27,219 nucleotides of DNA from Rhodanobacteraceae bacterium (GTDB taxonomy: Bacteria > Pseudomonadota > Gammaproteobacteria > Xanthomonadales > Rhodanobacteraceae). The DNA is taken from the NCBI GenBank assembly GCA_036503375.1, contig DASXWZ010000076.1:1-27219 (forward strand), given 5' to 3'. Below the pieces are notes generated by a model. It was not told where the DNA came from. It saw only the letters and a list, made by a program, of their open reading frames with translations, and made no database searches. The position numbers were made by a program, and so were the translations under genes. The stretch's first letter is position 1. Each line of letters starts with the position of its first letter. This document shows positions 24,755-27,219 of the stretch, piece by piece.

Positions 24755-26290
24755 CTAGGTGCCAGCCGGCGCCCCGAACCATTGGGTGAGCGCGTCGGCC
24801 AGTCCGGCGCCCGATCCGTCGCCCACCCAAGCGACATGGCCATCCGGCCGCACCAGCACGGCGGTGGGTGCATCGACGCCCCCGATTACCGGCAGCTCCC
24901 ACGCGCCGCAATATTCCGTATCGACCGTGCGAACACGATCCGCCCACTGCATTGCGATGCCGTCGAGCGCGCCGCGCTCGCCGAAGTTGATCAGCAGCGG
25001 CCGCGCGTCGTGCAGCAGTTCGAACACCCGCGTCGGCTTGTCCGTGGTCACCACTTCCAGATCGGGCATCCGCCTTCCGAGCAGCGGGTGTCCTTCACCG
25101 AAATCGTAACGGATGCCCAGGCCGGACATCATCGCCGCGACTTTCTTGCGGGACTCGTCGCATGCGAGCAGTTTGGCCACGATCTCGCGCAACGCGGCGG
25201 TGCGATCGTCCGTGCGGAGCAGCGCGGTCTGCGCCATCGTGTTGCGCAGTACGCGCGCGCCGACCGGGTGGCGTTCGGCATGATAGGTGTCGAGCAGGAT
25301 TTCGGGCGACGTGCGCTTCACCACTTGGGCCAGTTTCCAACCCAGGTTCACCGCGTCCTGCACGCCGGTGTTGAGGCCCTGTCCGCCGACCGGCGAATGC
25401 ACGTGCGCCGCGTCGCCCGCCAGCAACACGCGCCGTTCGCGGTAGCTCGCTGCCTGCCGCGCCATGTCGGTGAAGCGCGAAATCCAGGTCGGATTATGGG
25501 CGCCGTAATCGGTGCCGCACACGGCGATCAGCGCTTCGCCGAAGTCGCGCAGCGTGGGCTCGCCTGTTCCGACATTCTTCTCGGGCACCATCACGCGTAC
25601 AGGCCCGCCCTCCTTCCAGATGATCTCGCCATCGCGGATTTCGTAATCCCGCTTGCCGAAGGCATGCGTGCCGAACGCCGTGCGGTGGACGCCCAGCGGC
25701 GGCTGATCAGTCATCTCGACCTCGGCAATCAGGTTGCTCGTGGTCGCATCCGATCCGGGGAATGCGACACCGGCCGACTTGCGGACCGTGCTGCGTCCGC
25801 CATCGCAACCGACGAGGTATTGCGCGCGCAGCGAACCGTCGGAGAGTTCGACGTCCACGCCGCTGTCGTCCTGCGCGAAGCCCGTCACCTCGCGTCCGCG
25901 AAGGAACGTCGCGCCCAGCTAGCCGACCCAGCCGGCGAGGATGCGCTCGATGTGGTTCTGCCACAGCCCGAGCGTGTAGGGATGCCGGGAGGGAAAGTCG
26001 CTGATGTCCAGCTTGACCGAGGCGAACCCGAGGGCCTGGGCAATCTGTCCCTCCGCGAGGAAGCGTCCGGCGATGCCGCGCTGGTCGAGCACTTCGATCG
26101 TGCGCGCATGCAGGCCGCCCGCGCGCGAGCCGACCAGTTCCTGACTTTCGCGCCGCTCGACGATGGCGACGTCCACGCCCGCCAGTTTCAATTCCGCCGC
26201 GAGCATCAATCCGGTCGGACCTCCGCCGGCGATCACCACGTCATGGCCGCGTATCGCGGAAGAATAGTTTTTTGCTGAAGACAAGCCCAT
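24755..26290 (-). pseudogene. Rox (rifamycin monooxygenase)-like / PheA-TfdB group A flavin monooxygenase interrupted by one in-frame TAG at codon 124
   Basis: RBS GGAGG before ATG 26290. GGGPTG, GLHARTIEVLDQRG, YLVGCDGGRSTVRK, LLAGDAAHVH.P.GGQGLN.GVQDA.NLGWKLA and LVRPDGHVAWVG. The two track ORFs share a frame and are separated only by TAG at 25921-25919 (...WVG*LGATFLRGREV...). Confidence 0.88.
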
Positions 26291-26348
26291 TCGCACCTCC
26301 AATCGCCGGTGTCCCGAAGTCCGGGCGGGCGATTGGACGGCACGACCC

Positions 26349-26367
26349 GGGGCTTGCCGCAAGCCCC
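26349..26367. promoter_or_regulatory. 19-bp palindrome resembling the rifamycin-associated element (RAE)
   Basis: GGGGCTTGC-C-GCAAGCCCC is a perfect inverted repeat (21 bp with the flanking C/G), about 60 bp upstream of the Rox-like start codon. Confidence 0.7.
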
Positions 26368-26389
26368 GTCCCTGCTAGGATATTGATAG

Positions 26390-26423
26390 TGGCGAGGAGA
26401 GCATTTCTCCTCGCCAATTTTTT
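26390..26423 (+). terminator. Intrinsic terminator-like hairpin
   Basis: TGGCGAGGAGA-GCATT-TCTCCTCGCCA (11-bp perfect stem) followed by ATTTTTT on the plus strand. Confidence 0.75.
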
Positions 26424-26514
26424 GGGTGCGATCCATAAATGCCTAAGCGTCGCATCAAACGAGATGTAGACGCGCCACTGTTCCTCGCAAAGCATCAAAA
26501 AACTGTTGCGAAAG

Positions 26515-26549
26515 GGACAAAAAGCGGACATCATGCCCGCAATTAGTCC
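26515..26549. promoter_or_regulatory. Symmetric operator-like element overlapping a predicted promoter of the methyltransferase gene
   Basis: GGAC-N5-GCGGAC-N5-GCCCGC-N5-GTCC, with its axis at 26532. It overlaps TTGCGA (26506-26511)-N17-CATCAT (26529-26534). Confidence 0.55.
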
Positions 26550-26568
26550 ACCTGCTTGCGAGGGCAAT

Positions 26569-27219
26569 ATGGAAAACGCACGGCATCTACTCGCGAGCTT
26601 GCGGGGTCGCTACAGCCAAAAGGAACTGGCTGCCATTTTGGAAACCGATGTTCGCACCCTGAGGCGATGGGAACTCGGTGAAACCGAACCACCGAAATAC
26701 CTGCCGGACGCGATTCGTCAACGTCTCCTGCCGTTGGCCAGTTACAACAACGACTCAGCGTTCACTTTCATTGATCTCTTCGCAGGAATCGGCGGAATAC
26801 GTGCAGGTTTCGAGACGCACGGCGGGCGGTGTGTGTTCACCAGTGAGTGGAATTCGTACGCACAAAAGACCTATCTCGACAACTTTCCGCATTCTGCACA
26901 CGCTTTTGCAGGCGACATCACCAAGGTTGATGAACGCGACGTTCCCGACCACGACGTACTGCTCGCTGGGTTTCCATGCCAGCCTTTCAGCATCGCGGGT
27001 GTCTCGAAGAAGAATGCACTCGGTCGTGCCCATGGGTTCGCAGACGAGACTCAAGGGACGTTGTTCTTTGATGTTGCTCGCATCATTGCGACAAAACGGC
27101 CCAAGGCGTTCCTGCTGGAAAACGTGAAGAACCTGATCAGCCACGACAAAGGCAATACCTTTCGCGTGATCCAGAAGGCGTTGGAGAAGGATCTGCGCTA
27201 TCACGTCCAATGGAAGGTG
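26569..27219 (+). CDS. dcm: C5-cytosine DNA methyltransferase, Dcm/EcoRII-like, with N-terminal Xre-type HTH (partial, runs off the window)
   Basis: Translated by hand: MENARHLL...YSQKELAAILETDVRTLRRWELGETEPP (HTH), then FIDLFAGIGG (motif I), GDIT, LLAGFPCQPFSIAGVSKKNALGRAHGF (motif IV) and ENVKNL (motif VI). Open to the window end; not in the ORF track. Confidence 0.93.
   Translation, partial: MENARHLLASLRGRYSQKELAAILETDVRTLRRWELGETEPPKYLPDAIRQRLLPLASYNNDSAFTFIDLFAGIGGIRAGFETHGGRCVFTSEWNSYAQKTYLDNFPHSAHAFAGDITKVDERDVPDHDVLLAGFPCQPFSIAGVSKKNALGRAHGFADETQGTLFFDVARIIATKRPKAFLLENVKNLISHDKGNTFRVIQKALEKDLRYHVQWKV

What the first reader, a model, noticed from the sequence alone, without database searches (positions are those of the whole stretch)
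24755..26368. RAE-like palindrome in front of a Rox-like gene in a proteobacterium: a possible rifamycin-inducible resistance system outside Actinobacteria
Seen: a perfect 19-bp inverted repeat, gene-strand GGGGCTTGCGGCAAGCCCC, about 60 bp upstream of a monooxygenase with Rox-type motifs (GLHARTIEVLDQRG, GTDYGAHNPTWISRF, ERHPVGARVL.NT.AQ, RYDFGEGHPLLGRR). Known: the rifamycin-associated element is a 19-bp inverted repeat that confers rifampicin induction on rox, rgt, arr, rph and helR in actinomycetes; I recall the consensus as about GGGGCTTGCGGCAAGGCCC, one mismatch from this copy. Inferred: the same sensing element operates in Gram-negative soil bacteria. I am not aware that this has been described, and it would give a probe for new resistance genes there.
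Basis: partly seen in the sequence, partly recalled or inferred. Interest (0 to 1): 0.9.

Follow-up and report, generated by a model that had tools for sequence, protein, structure and literature searches.

The report
Rifamycin-sensing promoter element in a proteobacterium
A DNA switch that actinomycetes use to turn on rifamycin-destroying genes is also present, with its whole promoter module, in a soil gammaproteobacterium and many other non-actinomycetes. This widens where such resistance genes can be looked for, although this particular copy drives a gene with a premature stop.

Summary
GGGGCTTGCGGCAAGCCCC lies at 26349-26367 (minus strand), 58 nt before the ATG. It is unique in the 2.7-Mb genome and identical to one of four published RAE query 19-mers.

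About 90 nt around it align at 75-78% identity with actinomycete modules in front of helR and an rph-like gene.

The contig is proteobacterial. Its rpoD is 95-97% identical to Rhodanobacteraceae RpoD.

The gene belongs to the PRK06834 monooxygenase family. It is 47% identical to a canonical Rox and falls below the Rox equivalog cut-off. It carries an in-frame TAG at codon 124. Every contig covering that site in two soil DNA runs and one RNA run reads GAG there.

- In 401 Xanthomonadales genomes, 17 of 28 fetched hits had module flanks, and all 17 preceded arr (12), PRK06834 genes (4) or a canonical rox (1).
- In the wider phylum sample the element also preceded Rgt-like glycosyltransferases.
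- Homologues in Acidobacteriota and Gemmatimonadota carry it too.
- Across 36 proteobacterial copies the 19-mer is 88% identical pairwise, against 31% in distal flanks.

Rifamycin induction and enzyme activity are inferred, not shown. The papers I could read describe RAE only in Actinobacteria. This scan has noted related cases on other DNA.

The parts
26349..26367 (-). RAE, the 19-bp inverted repeat GGGGCTTGCGGCAAGCCCC. It contains TTGCGG on the gene strand and TTGCCG on the opposite strand, both -35-like.
   Evidence: Identical to a published RAE query 19-mer. 88% mean pairwise identity among 36 proteobacterial copies.
26324..26348 (-). Conserved block just downstream of the RAE (GGGTCGTGCCGTCCAATCGCCCGCC). 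It includes the position of the putative -10 of the sense promoter, which reads TCCAAT at 26337-26332 here and CATAAT or CAGAAT in most other copies.
   Evidence: Consensus gGgtCnTGcCGcAnaATCgCCgnCc over 51 anchored copies. Of the 19 specified consensus positions, 17 match here by my own count, scored as. 34 of 51 copies have nAnnAT at +12 to +17. The promoter role follows the statement in PMC10719064 that the RAE overlaps a -35. It was not mapped here.
26376..26382 (.). AT-rich box upstream of the RAE. It reads TATCCT on the gene strand and TAGGAT on the plus strand, and could serve as a -10 in either direction.
   Evidence: A TATA-type box sits at this position in most copies. Its direction is not resolved. 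The tool's sigma-70 scan finds no promoter reaching 9 of 12.
26390..26423 (+). 12-bp hairpin followed by a T-run. It looks like an intrinsic terminator on the strand opposite to the gene, so it would stop transcripts leaving the RAE away from the gene.
   Evidence: Terminator scan. Fold -21.5 kcal/mol, z -3.6. The same hairpin is in three same-genus genomes. Hairpins with different arm sequences stand at the same place in Nocardia, Streptomyces and Nonomuraea modules. The -68 to -19 region is more structured than a control region in 45 copies.
26296..26300 (-). Shine-Dalgarno sequence GGAGG, 5 nt before the ATG.
25922..26290 (-). Codons 1-123 of the monooxygenase: a 16-residue N-terminal extension and then the FAD-binding GGGPTG fold.
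25919..25921 (-). In-frame amber codon TAG at codon 124. Relatives have GAG (Glu).
   Evidence: E at this position in L001 and L002. All contigs laid across 25921 in two soil DNA runs and one RNA run read C, which gives GAG.
24755..25918 (-). Codons 125-511 of the monooxygenase and its stop codon, which is also TAG. It contains the rest of the FAD_binding_3 domain and Rng_hyd_C.
   Evidence: GC3 of 0.82 and no further disruption.

Best explanation
The palindrome is a genuine rifamycin-associated element (RAE). It sits at the centre of a promoter module of about 95 nt that is homologous to the modules in front of helR and an rph-like gene in actinomycetes. Here the module stands in the chromosome of an uncultured Rhodanobacteraceae bacterium (Gammaproteobacteria), in front of a PRK06834-family FAD monooxygenase, the sister family of the rifamycin-destroying enzyme Rox.

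Most likely working (inferred):
- The RAE overlaps the -35 region of a weak sense promoter, TTGCGG-N19-TCCAAT here.
- Basal transcription is low.
- When rifamycins partly inhibit RNA polymerase, transcription from this promoter rises.
- The enzyme then hydroxylates the naphthoquinone core and inactivates the drug, as Rox does.

The module travels with at least four resistance gene families (arr, rox, PRK06834, rgt-like) through several phyla. No conserved regulator gene lies upstream of it. I therefore lean towards a sensor that uses the host's own RNA polymerase or a universally present factor, rather than a lineage-specific regulator.

In this genome the gene carries an amber codon at position 124. 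As assembled, the system is an inactive allele or contains an assembly error. Close relatives have the intact codon.

Shown here: identity and homology of the element and module, host taxonomy, gene family, association with resistance genes in Proteobacteria, and strong conservation of the 19-mer.

Inferred: inducibility, promoter assignment, substrate and sensing mechanism.
For: Element and module
- Exact match to a published RAE 19-mer.
- Its position, -77 to -59, is close to that of the M. smegmatis arr element, -74 to -56.
- Window 26291-26440 aligns over about 90 nt at 75-78% identity with Streptomyces, Nocardia, Nonomuraea and Embleya DNA.
- The genes downstream of those matches are an RGI-annotated HelR, a HelD-like 767-aa protein and an rph-like gene.

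Host
- rpoD is on the same contig.
- The same module is in three same-genus genomes.
- Independent soil metagenome contigs join the module to its upstream neighbour region.
- The monooxygenase sits in a clade of mostly Xanthomonadales sequences.

Gene family
- NF005303 scores 841 bits against a cut-off of 625.
- The best solved-structure match is S. venezuelae Rox, 5VQB.
- 47% identity to an RAE-linked canonical Rox in the same bacterial family.
- A Rox homologue only 49% identical to NfRox still degrades rifamycin SV (PMC7283461).

Association with resistance genes
- 45 of 80 PRK06834 homologue loci across six phyla have the element, with up to 3 mismatches, within 400 nt upstream.
- In Proteobacteria it precedes an arr that passes the NF033144 cut-off, an Rgt-like glycosyltransferase and a canonical Rox.
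- One gammaproteobacterial MAG has three copies: two before arr and one before the monooxygenase.

Selection and portability
- Pairwise identity is 0.88 in the RAE against 0.31 in distal flanks, over 36 proteobacterial copies.
- No conserved upstream neighbour gene among 55 module loci.
Against: - No expression or activity data exist for any non-actinobacterial copy. The RNA runs I laid held only short pieces of relatives.
- The enzyme fails the Rox equivalog cut-off: 486 bits against 800. It is about as similar to the polyketide oxygenase 4K2X as to Rox: 372 against 377 bits.
- In this genus the putative -10 reads TCCAAT and lacks the usual A at -11. The consensus scan finds no sigma-70 promoter reaching 9 of 12 matches.
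- The gene is interrupted by TAG. Its own terminal stop is also TAG, so recoding of TAG is unlikely.
- The genome holds no arr and no second PRK06834 gene.
- Gram-negative bacteria are described as mostly intrinsically insensitive to rifamycins (10.1101/2021.05.10.443488).
- The argument against a dedicated regulator rests only on the absence of a linked gene upstream. Downstream neighbours and unlinked genes were not tested.
Confidence: 0.7

Rival explanations
1. Relic cassette. The module and gene arrived by horizontal transfer, ultimately from actinomycetes, and no longer work in this host. The promoter has drifted, the gene is a pseudogene, and the palindrome has simply not decayed yet.
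For: - Amber codon at codon 124.
- The -10-like hexamer is degraded to TCCAAT in this genus.
- One same-genus genome (L004) keeps the module but has unrelated sequence downstream of it.
- The element has been lost or gained many times on the protein tree, 28 changes.
- Phyla are intermixed on that tree, 22 changes against a minimum of 6.
Against: - The 19-mer is letter-perfect in four species of the genus, while their enzymes are only 66-77% identical.
- Across 36 proteobacterial copies the RAE keeps 88% identity while distal flanks are down to 31%. That pattern indicates purifying selection in Proteobacteria, not a recent leftover.
- The reading frame after the TAG is otherwise intact, with GC3 of 0.82.
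- Contigs in two soil DNA runs and one RNA run read GAG at the site.
Confidence: 0.17
2. The module responds to rifamycins, or to inhibition of RNA polymerase in general, but the PRK06834 enzyme acts on something else: another ansamycin or an aromatic polyketide. It would then not be a rifamycin resistance enzyme in the strict sense.
For: - It falls below the Rox equivalog cut-off.
- It scores almost equally against polyketide oxygenases (4K2X, CabE, PgaE) and against Rox.
- A source names a close homologue 'anhydrotetracycline monooxygenase'.
- Characterised Rox enzymes already differ in substrate scope (PMC7283461).
Against: - Every other gene family found behind a module-type RAE here has a known or best-matching rifamycin-inactivating function: arr, rox, rgt-like, and rph-like and helR in actinomycetes.
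- The literature reports that the RAE has predicted rifamycin resistance genes.
- A homologue at a similar distance (49% to NfRox) still degrades rifamycin SV.
Confidence: 0.1
3. Chance or a generic hairpin. The palindrome is a GC-rich terminator or REP-type repeat that happens to match the RAE, or the contig end is a mis-binned or chimeric piece of actinomycete DNA.
For: - GC-rich palindromes of this type do occur as repeats in some Xanthomonadales. One genome has 42 near-matches, and 11 of 28 fetched hits lacked the module flanks.
- The reversed control pattern hit about 14 of 401 genomes at up to 1 mismatch.
- The genome is a 408-contig MAG.
Against: - It is unique in the genome.
- 17 of 19 specified flank-consensus positions match (my count of the sequence against the consensus).
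- Homology extends over about 90 nt to actinomycete RAE modules.
- No T-run follows it on the gene strand.
- rpoD of Rhodanobacteraceae type lies 15 kb away on the same contig.
- The same arrangement is in three same-genus genomes. It also lies inside megabase-scale contigs of Xanthomonadales genomes scored 99-100% complete, and in isolates such as Lysobacter sp. Root690.
Confidence: 0.03

Closest known systems
RAE promoter modules of actinomycetes: upstream of helR in Nonomuraea gerenzanensis and Nocardia farcinica, of an rph-like gene in Streptomyces sp. BHT-5-2, and of arr in M. smegmatis (Spanogiannopoulos 2014 as cited; Surette et al. 10.1101/2021.05.10.443488)
   Same: - The same 19-bp palindrome, an exact variant.
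- The same conserved flanks: an upstream hairpin, an AT-rich box, and the downstream block GGTCGTGCCGCAnAATCG.
- A similar distance to the start codon.
- The same kinds of downstream gene.

   Different: - The host is a Gram-negative gammaproteobacterium.
- The -10-like hexamer reads TCCAAT, not CATAAT or CAGAAT.
- The upstream hairpin carries a clear T-run on the opposite strand.
- Induction is untested.
Rox / RIFMO rifamycin monooxygenases (S. venezuelae Rox 5VQB/6BRD; N. farcinica 5KOW; NCBIfam NF033145)
   Same: - Group A FAD monooxygenase with FAD_binding_3 and Rng_hyd_C domains.
- Best solved-structure match by sequence.
- Linked to an RAE.

   Different: - 47% identity to a canonical Rox.
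- Scores 486 bits against the 800-bit equivalog cut-off.
- Belongs to NF005303 (PRK06834), which NCBIfam names only 'hypothetical protein'.
- Interrupted here by an amber codon.

The convergent dual-promoter rifampicin sensor of Bacillus subtilis helD and pps (PMC12802891)
   Same: - A cis-acting promoter arrangement that turns on rifampicin resistance genes at sub-inhibitory drug levels.
- It needs no dedicated regulator: RNA polymerase itself is the sensor.
- The RAE module also spreads without a linked regulator gene upstream.
   Different: - The B. subtilis promoters face each other, 39 bp apart.
- In the RAE module the candidate promoters would be back to back, sharing the palindrome as a -35.
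- The authors treat the RAE as a separate, unresolved system.
- No transcription start data exist for the module here.

Membership tests
Rifamycin-associated element (RAE) | 19-bp inverted repeat matching the published consensus variants | tested here: met
   Exact match to GGGGCTTGCGGCAAGCCCC, one of four published query 19-mers.
Rifamycin-associated element (RAE) | Lies in the promoter region just upstream of a rifamycin resistance-type gene | tested here: met
   At -77 to -59 from the ATG of a Rox-related monooxygenase. The M. smegmatis arr element is at -74 to -56.
Rifamycin-associated element (RAE) | Flanking promoter module shared with accepted RAE loci | tested here: met
   About 90 nt align at 75-78% identity with actinomycete loci upstream of helR and an rph-like gene. 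17 of 19 specified consensus flank positions match (my count).
Rifamycin-associated element (RAE) | Needed for induction of the downstream gene by rifamycins | not testable with these tools
   Needs a reporter or RT-qPCR experiment. The RNA runs I laid gave no usable coverage.
Rox, rifampin monooxygenase (NCBIfam NF033145 equivalog) | Group A FAD monooxygenase architecture | tested here: met
   PF01494 and PF21274 cover both halves.
Rox, rifampin monooxygenase (NCBIfam NF033145 equivalog) | Score at or above the curated equivalog cut-off of 800 bits | tested here: not met
   485.8 bits when read through the stop. A canonical Rox in the same bacterial family (L122) scores 869.5.
Rox, rifampin monooxygenase (NCBIfam NF033145 equivalog) | Hydroxylates and linearises rifamycins | not testable with these tools
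   Needs an enzyme assay with LC-MS.
PRK06834 (NCBIfam NF005303 subfamily) | Score at or above the curated cut-off of 625 bits | tested here: met
   841 bits over profile positions 3-486 of 488.
PRK06834 (NCBIfam NF005303 subfamily) | Uninterrupted reading frame | tested here: not met
   One TAG inside the match. Relatives and metagenome contigs read GAG there.

The most novel reading that the evidence does not exclude
The RAE module is a self-contained rifamycin sensor that does not depend on the host. The palindrome would serve as a shared -35 for two opposed promoters: a weak one towards the resistance gene and one running away from it into a short hairpin terminator. RNA polymerase itself would be the drug receptor. 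This would explain why the same roughly 95-nt module has spread with several different resistance gene families through Actinomycetota, Pseudomonadota, Acidobacteriota and Gemmatimonadota without any linked regulator.
Probability: 0.3. Interest if true: 0.85.

Novelty: new variant of a known kind. Interest (0 to 1): 0.62.

Why it matters
The RAE has been used as a signpost for finding rifamycin resistance genes, including HelR. The reviews I could read say that how it senses the drug is still unknown.

If it works in Gram-negative soil bacteria and other phyla, three things follow:
- The same signpost can be used to mine resistance genes well beyond actinomycetes.
- The PRK06834 family becomes a strong candidate for a second family of rifamycin-inducible inactivating enzymes.
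- Spread across phyla without a linked regulator argues that the sensor is RNA polymerase or a universal factor. That makes the mechanism question testable with purified polymerase and in tractable Gram-negative hosts.

Cultured carriers exist for such tests, including Lysobacter sp. Root690, Dyella silvatica and Bradyrhizobium strains.

Tried and rejected
- **RNA evidence.** The RNA runs held only 5-7% of the sampled words. When laid, they gave short pieces of relatives and no starts or ends. Nothing can be said about transcription.
- **Confirming the TAG.** In the two DNA runs laid, same-strain contigs break between 25877 and 26074. Only a diverged haplotype with GAG covers the site. The amber allele is neither confirmed nor excluded.
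- **Consensus structure of the upstream hairpin.** RNAalifold on a MAFFT alignment gave no structure, because loop lengths differ. A strict perfect-stem search showed little enrichment, 12 against 9 loci. Only the comparison of folding-energy z-scores was clear. I therefore call the hairpin frequent, not universal.
- **Sigma-70 consensus scan.** It found no promoter at 9 of 12 matches in 26200-26620. The AT-rich boxes read as -10-like in both directions, so sequence alone does not settle promoter direction.
- **Linked regulator.** Clustering six-frame ORFs across whole loci was swamped by shadow frames of the monooxygenase gene. Restricted to the 1.5 kb upstream, it showed no shared neighbour. 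Downstream neighbours were not analysed.
- **Kinship of named genomes.** Handles reached through loci of other tools carry no kinship label. Taxonomy came from RpoD instead.
- **Source paper.** The 2014 PNAS paper that defined the RAE is not held. I could not check whether it mentions hits outside Actinobacteria.
- **TAG recoding.** I rejected this because the gene's own terminal stop is also TAG.
Full report
**1. Observation**

Read on the minus strand, the region shows the following:
- GGGGCTTGCGGCAAGCCCC at 26367 to 26349.
- A GGAGG ribosome-binding site at 26300-26296.
- An ATG at 26290.
- An open frame that runs to a TAG stop at 24757-24755.
- One in-frame TAG at 25921-25919, which is codon 124.

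The palindrome is a perfect 8+3+8 inverted repeat. Allowing three mismatches, the window holds only this site, against 0.03 expected in shuffles. Allowing two, it is unique in the 2.69-Mb, 408-contig genome.

**2. Is it the RAE?**

The paper that defined the RAE is not held. A later study searched Actinomycetota with four RAE 19-mers, and one of them is exactly this sequence. An oligonucleotide table for M. smegmatis arr places the element at -74 to -56. Here it lies at -77 to -59.

The match is not limited to 19 nt. A blastn of window 26291-26440 against plasmid and replicon records aligned about 90 nt at 75-78% identity with Streptomyces, Streptantibioticus, Nocardia, Nonomuraea and Embleya. 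Three of these loci were fetched. The downstream genes were:
- A gene annotated by RGI as HelR in Nonomuraea gerenzanensis.
- A 767-aa HelD-like gene in Nocardia farcinica.
- A gene with the N-terminus of a rifampicin phosphotransferase in Streptomyces sp. BHT-5-2.

All three loci show the same order of parts as the window: a hairpin, an AT-rich box, the RAE, then GGTCGTGCCGCAnAATCG.

**3. Whose DNA is it?**

The window is a whole contig. About 15 kb from the element it encodes an RpoD with the Sigma70_ner region. This RpoD is 95-97% identical to RpoD of MAGs named Rhodanobacteraceae bacterium, and 80-84% identical to Mizugakiibacter, Dokdonella and Tahibacter.

Three other species genomes of the same genus carry the identical 19-mer with nearly identical flanks. 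Contigs from two independent soil studies cover the module and continue into the upstream neighbour region. Mis-binning or a chimera is therefore unlikely.

**4. The gene**

- Pfam finds FAD_binding_3 and Rng_hyd_C.
- Read through the stop, the protein scores 841 bits on NCBIfam NF005303 (PRK06834, cut-off 625). It scores 486 bits on the Rox equivalog NF033145 (cut-off 800).
- The best solved-structure match is S. venezuelae Rox at 377 bits. The polyketide oxygenase chain 4K2X follows at 372 bits.
- It is 47% identical to a canonical Rox.

It is therefore a member of the sister family of Rox, not a Rox equivalog. A Rox homologue only 49% identical to the Nocardia enzyme still degrades rifamycin SV (PMC7283461). 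Activity at this distance is plausible but untested.

**5. The stop codon**

- The two same-genus orthologues have Glu at this position.
- Every contig crossing 25921 in two soil DNA runs and one RNA run reads C, which gives GAG. Those contigs belong to a diverged haplotype (13 differences in 245 nt). Same-strain contigs break between 25877 and 26074.
- The gene's own terminal stop is also TAG, so recoding is unlikely.
- The rest of the frame is intact, with GC3 of 0.82.

The amber codon is either a recent strain-specific knockout or an assembly error. The genome holds no arr and no second PRK06834 gene.

**6. The element outside Actinobacteria**

*Homologues of the enzyme.* Homologues at 69-79% identity occur in Pseudomonadota, Actinomycetota, Acidobacteriota, Gemmatimonadota, Chloroflexota, Vulcanimicrobiota and, by source names, cyanobacteria.
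- Of the 80 fetched loci, 45 have the element, with up to three mismatches, within 400 nt upstream.
- Carriers include Lysobacter sp. Root690 (exact), Dyella silvatica, a Rhodanobacter MAG, Nevskia, Bradyrhizobium, Bryobacteraceae, Terriglobales and several Gemmatimonadaceae.

*Sample of 401 genomes of the phylum.* Module-type hits preceded these genes:
- Glycosyltransferases whose only strong NCBIfam match is Rgt (453 bits, below the 800-bit cut-off).
- PRK06834 monooxygenases.
- An arr that passes the NF033144 cut-off.

*Sample of 401 genomes of the order.*
- 43 genomes had a hit at up to one mismatch. The reversed control pattern hit about 14.
- Of the 28 loci fetched, 17 had the module flanks. 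All 17 preceded arr (12), PRK06834 genes (4) or a canonical Rox scoring 869.5 bits (1).
- The 11 loci without module flanks lay in unrelated contexts. Some were larger REP-like palindromes.
- One genome holds 42 near-copies. In Proteobacteria the 19-mer alone is therefore not enough to call an RAE.

*A multi-copy case.* One gammaproteobacterial MAG has three modules, two before arr and one before the monooxygenase.

**7. Is it under selection there?**

Across 36 proteobacterial module copies, mean pairwise identity is as follows:

| Region | Identity |
|---|---|
| RAE | 0.88 |
| +1 to +25 | 0.55 |
| -40 to -1 | 0.41 |
| Distal flanks | 0.31 |

The window's enzyme falls in a clade of 14 sequences, 11 of them proteobacterial, most carrying the element. 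The enzymes in that clade are only about 70-77% identical to the window's. The element has thus been kept while everything around it diverged. That argues for function in these hosts. The phyla are intermixed on the tree, with 22 label changes against a minimum of 6, so transfer between phyla has been frequent.

**8. How it may work**

The reviews I could read say three things:
- The RAE is needed for induction.
- It overlaps the -35 of a sense promoter.
- The sensing factor is unknown.

In 51 anchored copies the conserved block after the element carries a -10-like hexamer (nAnnAT in 34 of 51), 19 nt after TTGCGG.

An AT-rich box stands at a roughly mirror-image distance upstream. In the window it is followed by a 12-bp hairpin and a T-run on the plus strand. 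Comparable hairpins with different arm sequences stand at the same place in the actinomycete modules. The region is more structured than a control region (mean z -1.22 against +0.40).

The box reads as a -10 in both directions, and no consensus promoter reaches the tool's threshold. The two-way promoter model therefore remains a hypothesis.

No gene is shared upstream of 55 module loci. This fits a sensor that needs nothing lineage-specific. [quoted passage not shown]

**9. Comparison and novelty**

- The regulatory element passes every RAE membership test that can be run in silico.
- The enzyme is a PRK06834 member and fails the Rox equivalog test.
- The held literature that names the RAE places it in Actinobacteria only, and most of those searches were restricted to that phylum or to Gram-positives. 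Two further searches found no report for Proteobacteria.
- Earlier notes of this scan reported related cases on other DNA: an RAE before a PRK06834 gene, a worn module in Dormibacteria, a two-way promoter module at helR, and an Rgt stub fused to a monooxygenase. These are leads, not independent evidence.

**10. Verdict**

The system is a known kind, RAE-controlled rifamycin resistance, in a new host range and with an uncharacterised enzyme family. In this genome the gene is interrupted as assembled. Induction, substrate and sensing mechanism remain to be shown.

Noticed in passing
L009, L010, L023, L024, L064, L066, L122 and others; window 26243-26290: Many copies have a short leader ORF with a strong ribosome-binding site between the RAE and the monooxygenase. 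Its first codons (MRVSLSTY...) look like the N-terminus of the Rgt glycosyltransferase. Its stop overlaps the enzyme's start as ATGA. In the window the leader seems fused in frame, giving a 16-residue N-terminal extension. This suggests that a promoter and gene start of rgt type were captured by recombination.
   Followed up: partly
L001 (G029) compared with window 24755-26440: A same-genus genome shares the promoter module and roughly the first 45 codons almost letter for letter. Overall its enzyme is only 66% identical and sits elsewhere on the tree. This looks like a mosaic gene made by recombination at the conserved 5' end.
   Followed up: partly
L004 (G032), around position 1500: A same-genus genome keeps the hairpin, AT-rich box and exact RAE, but unrelated sequence follows immediately after the element. 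It is an orphan RAE left by a deletion or rearrangement.
   Followed up: no
G561, several contigs; L119, L120, L129, L130: One Xanthomonadales genome has 42 near-matches to the RAE. Several other genomes carry the variant GGTGCTTGCCGCAAGCCCC inside larger palindromes. These look like REP-type repeats, not RAE modules, and would give false positives in a search with the 19-mer alone.
   Followed up: partly
window 25892-25937: In the best-matching soil run the only contig covering this stretch differs at 13 positions within about 46 nt and reads GAG, not TAG. Same-strain contigs stop on either side. This points to a second haplotype or a recombination patch at exactly the place of the stop codon.
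   Followed up: partly
L102 and L107 (G462): An uncultured gammaproteobacterium has two nearly identical RAE-arr units on different contigs, plus an RAE before the monooxygenase. That makes a small RAE regulon of three members in one Gram-negative genome.
   Followed up: partly
L085-L088: Four genomes of the phylum sample match through GGGGCCTGCGGCAAGGCCC, which in all four lies in a stretch of similar sequence that reads as continuous coding sequence rather than a promoter. These look like homologous coding sequence, not regulatory elements.
   Followed up: no
window 26569-27219 (+) and 26524-26540 (-): The divergent upstream neighbour is a C-5 cytosine DNA methyltransferase, cut off by the contig end. 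The reading suggests an extra N-terminal HTH-like part. A second terminator-like hairpin lies on the minus strand between it and the RAE module.
   Followed up: no
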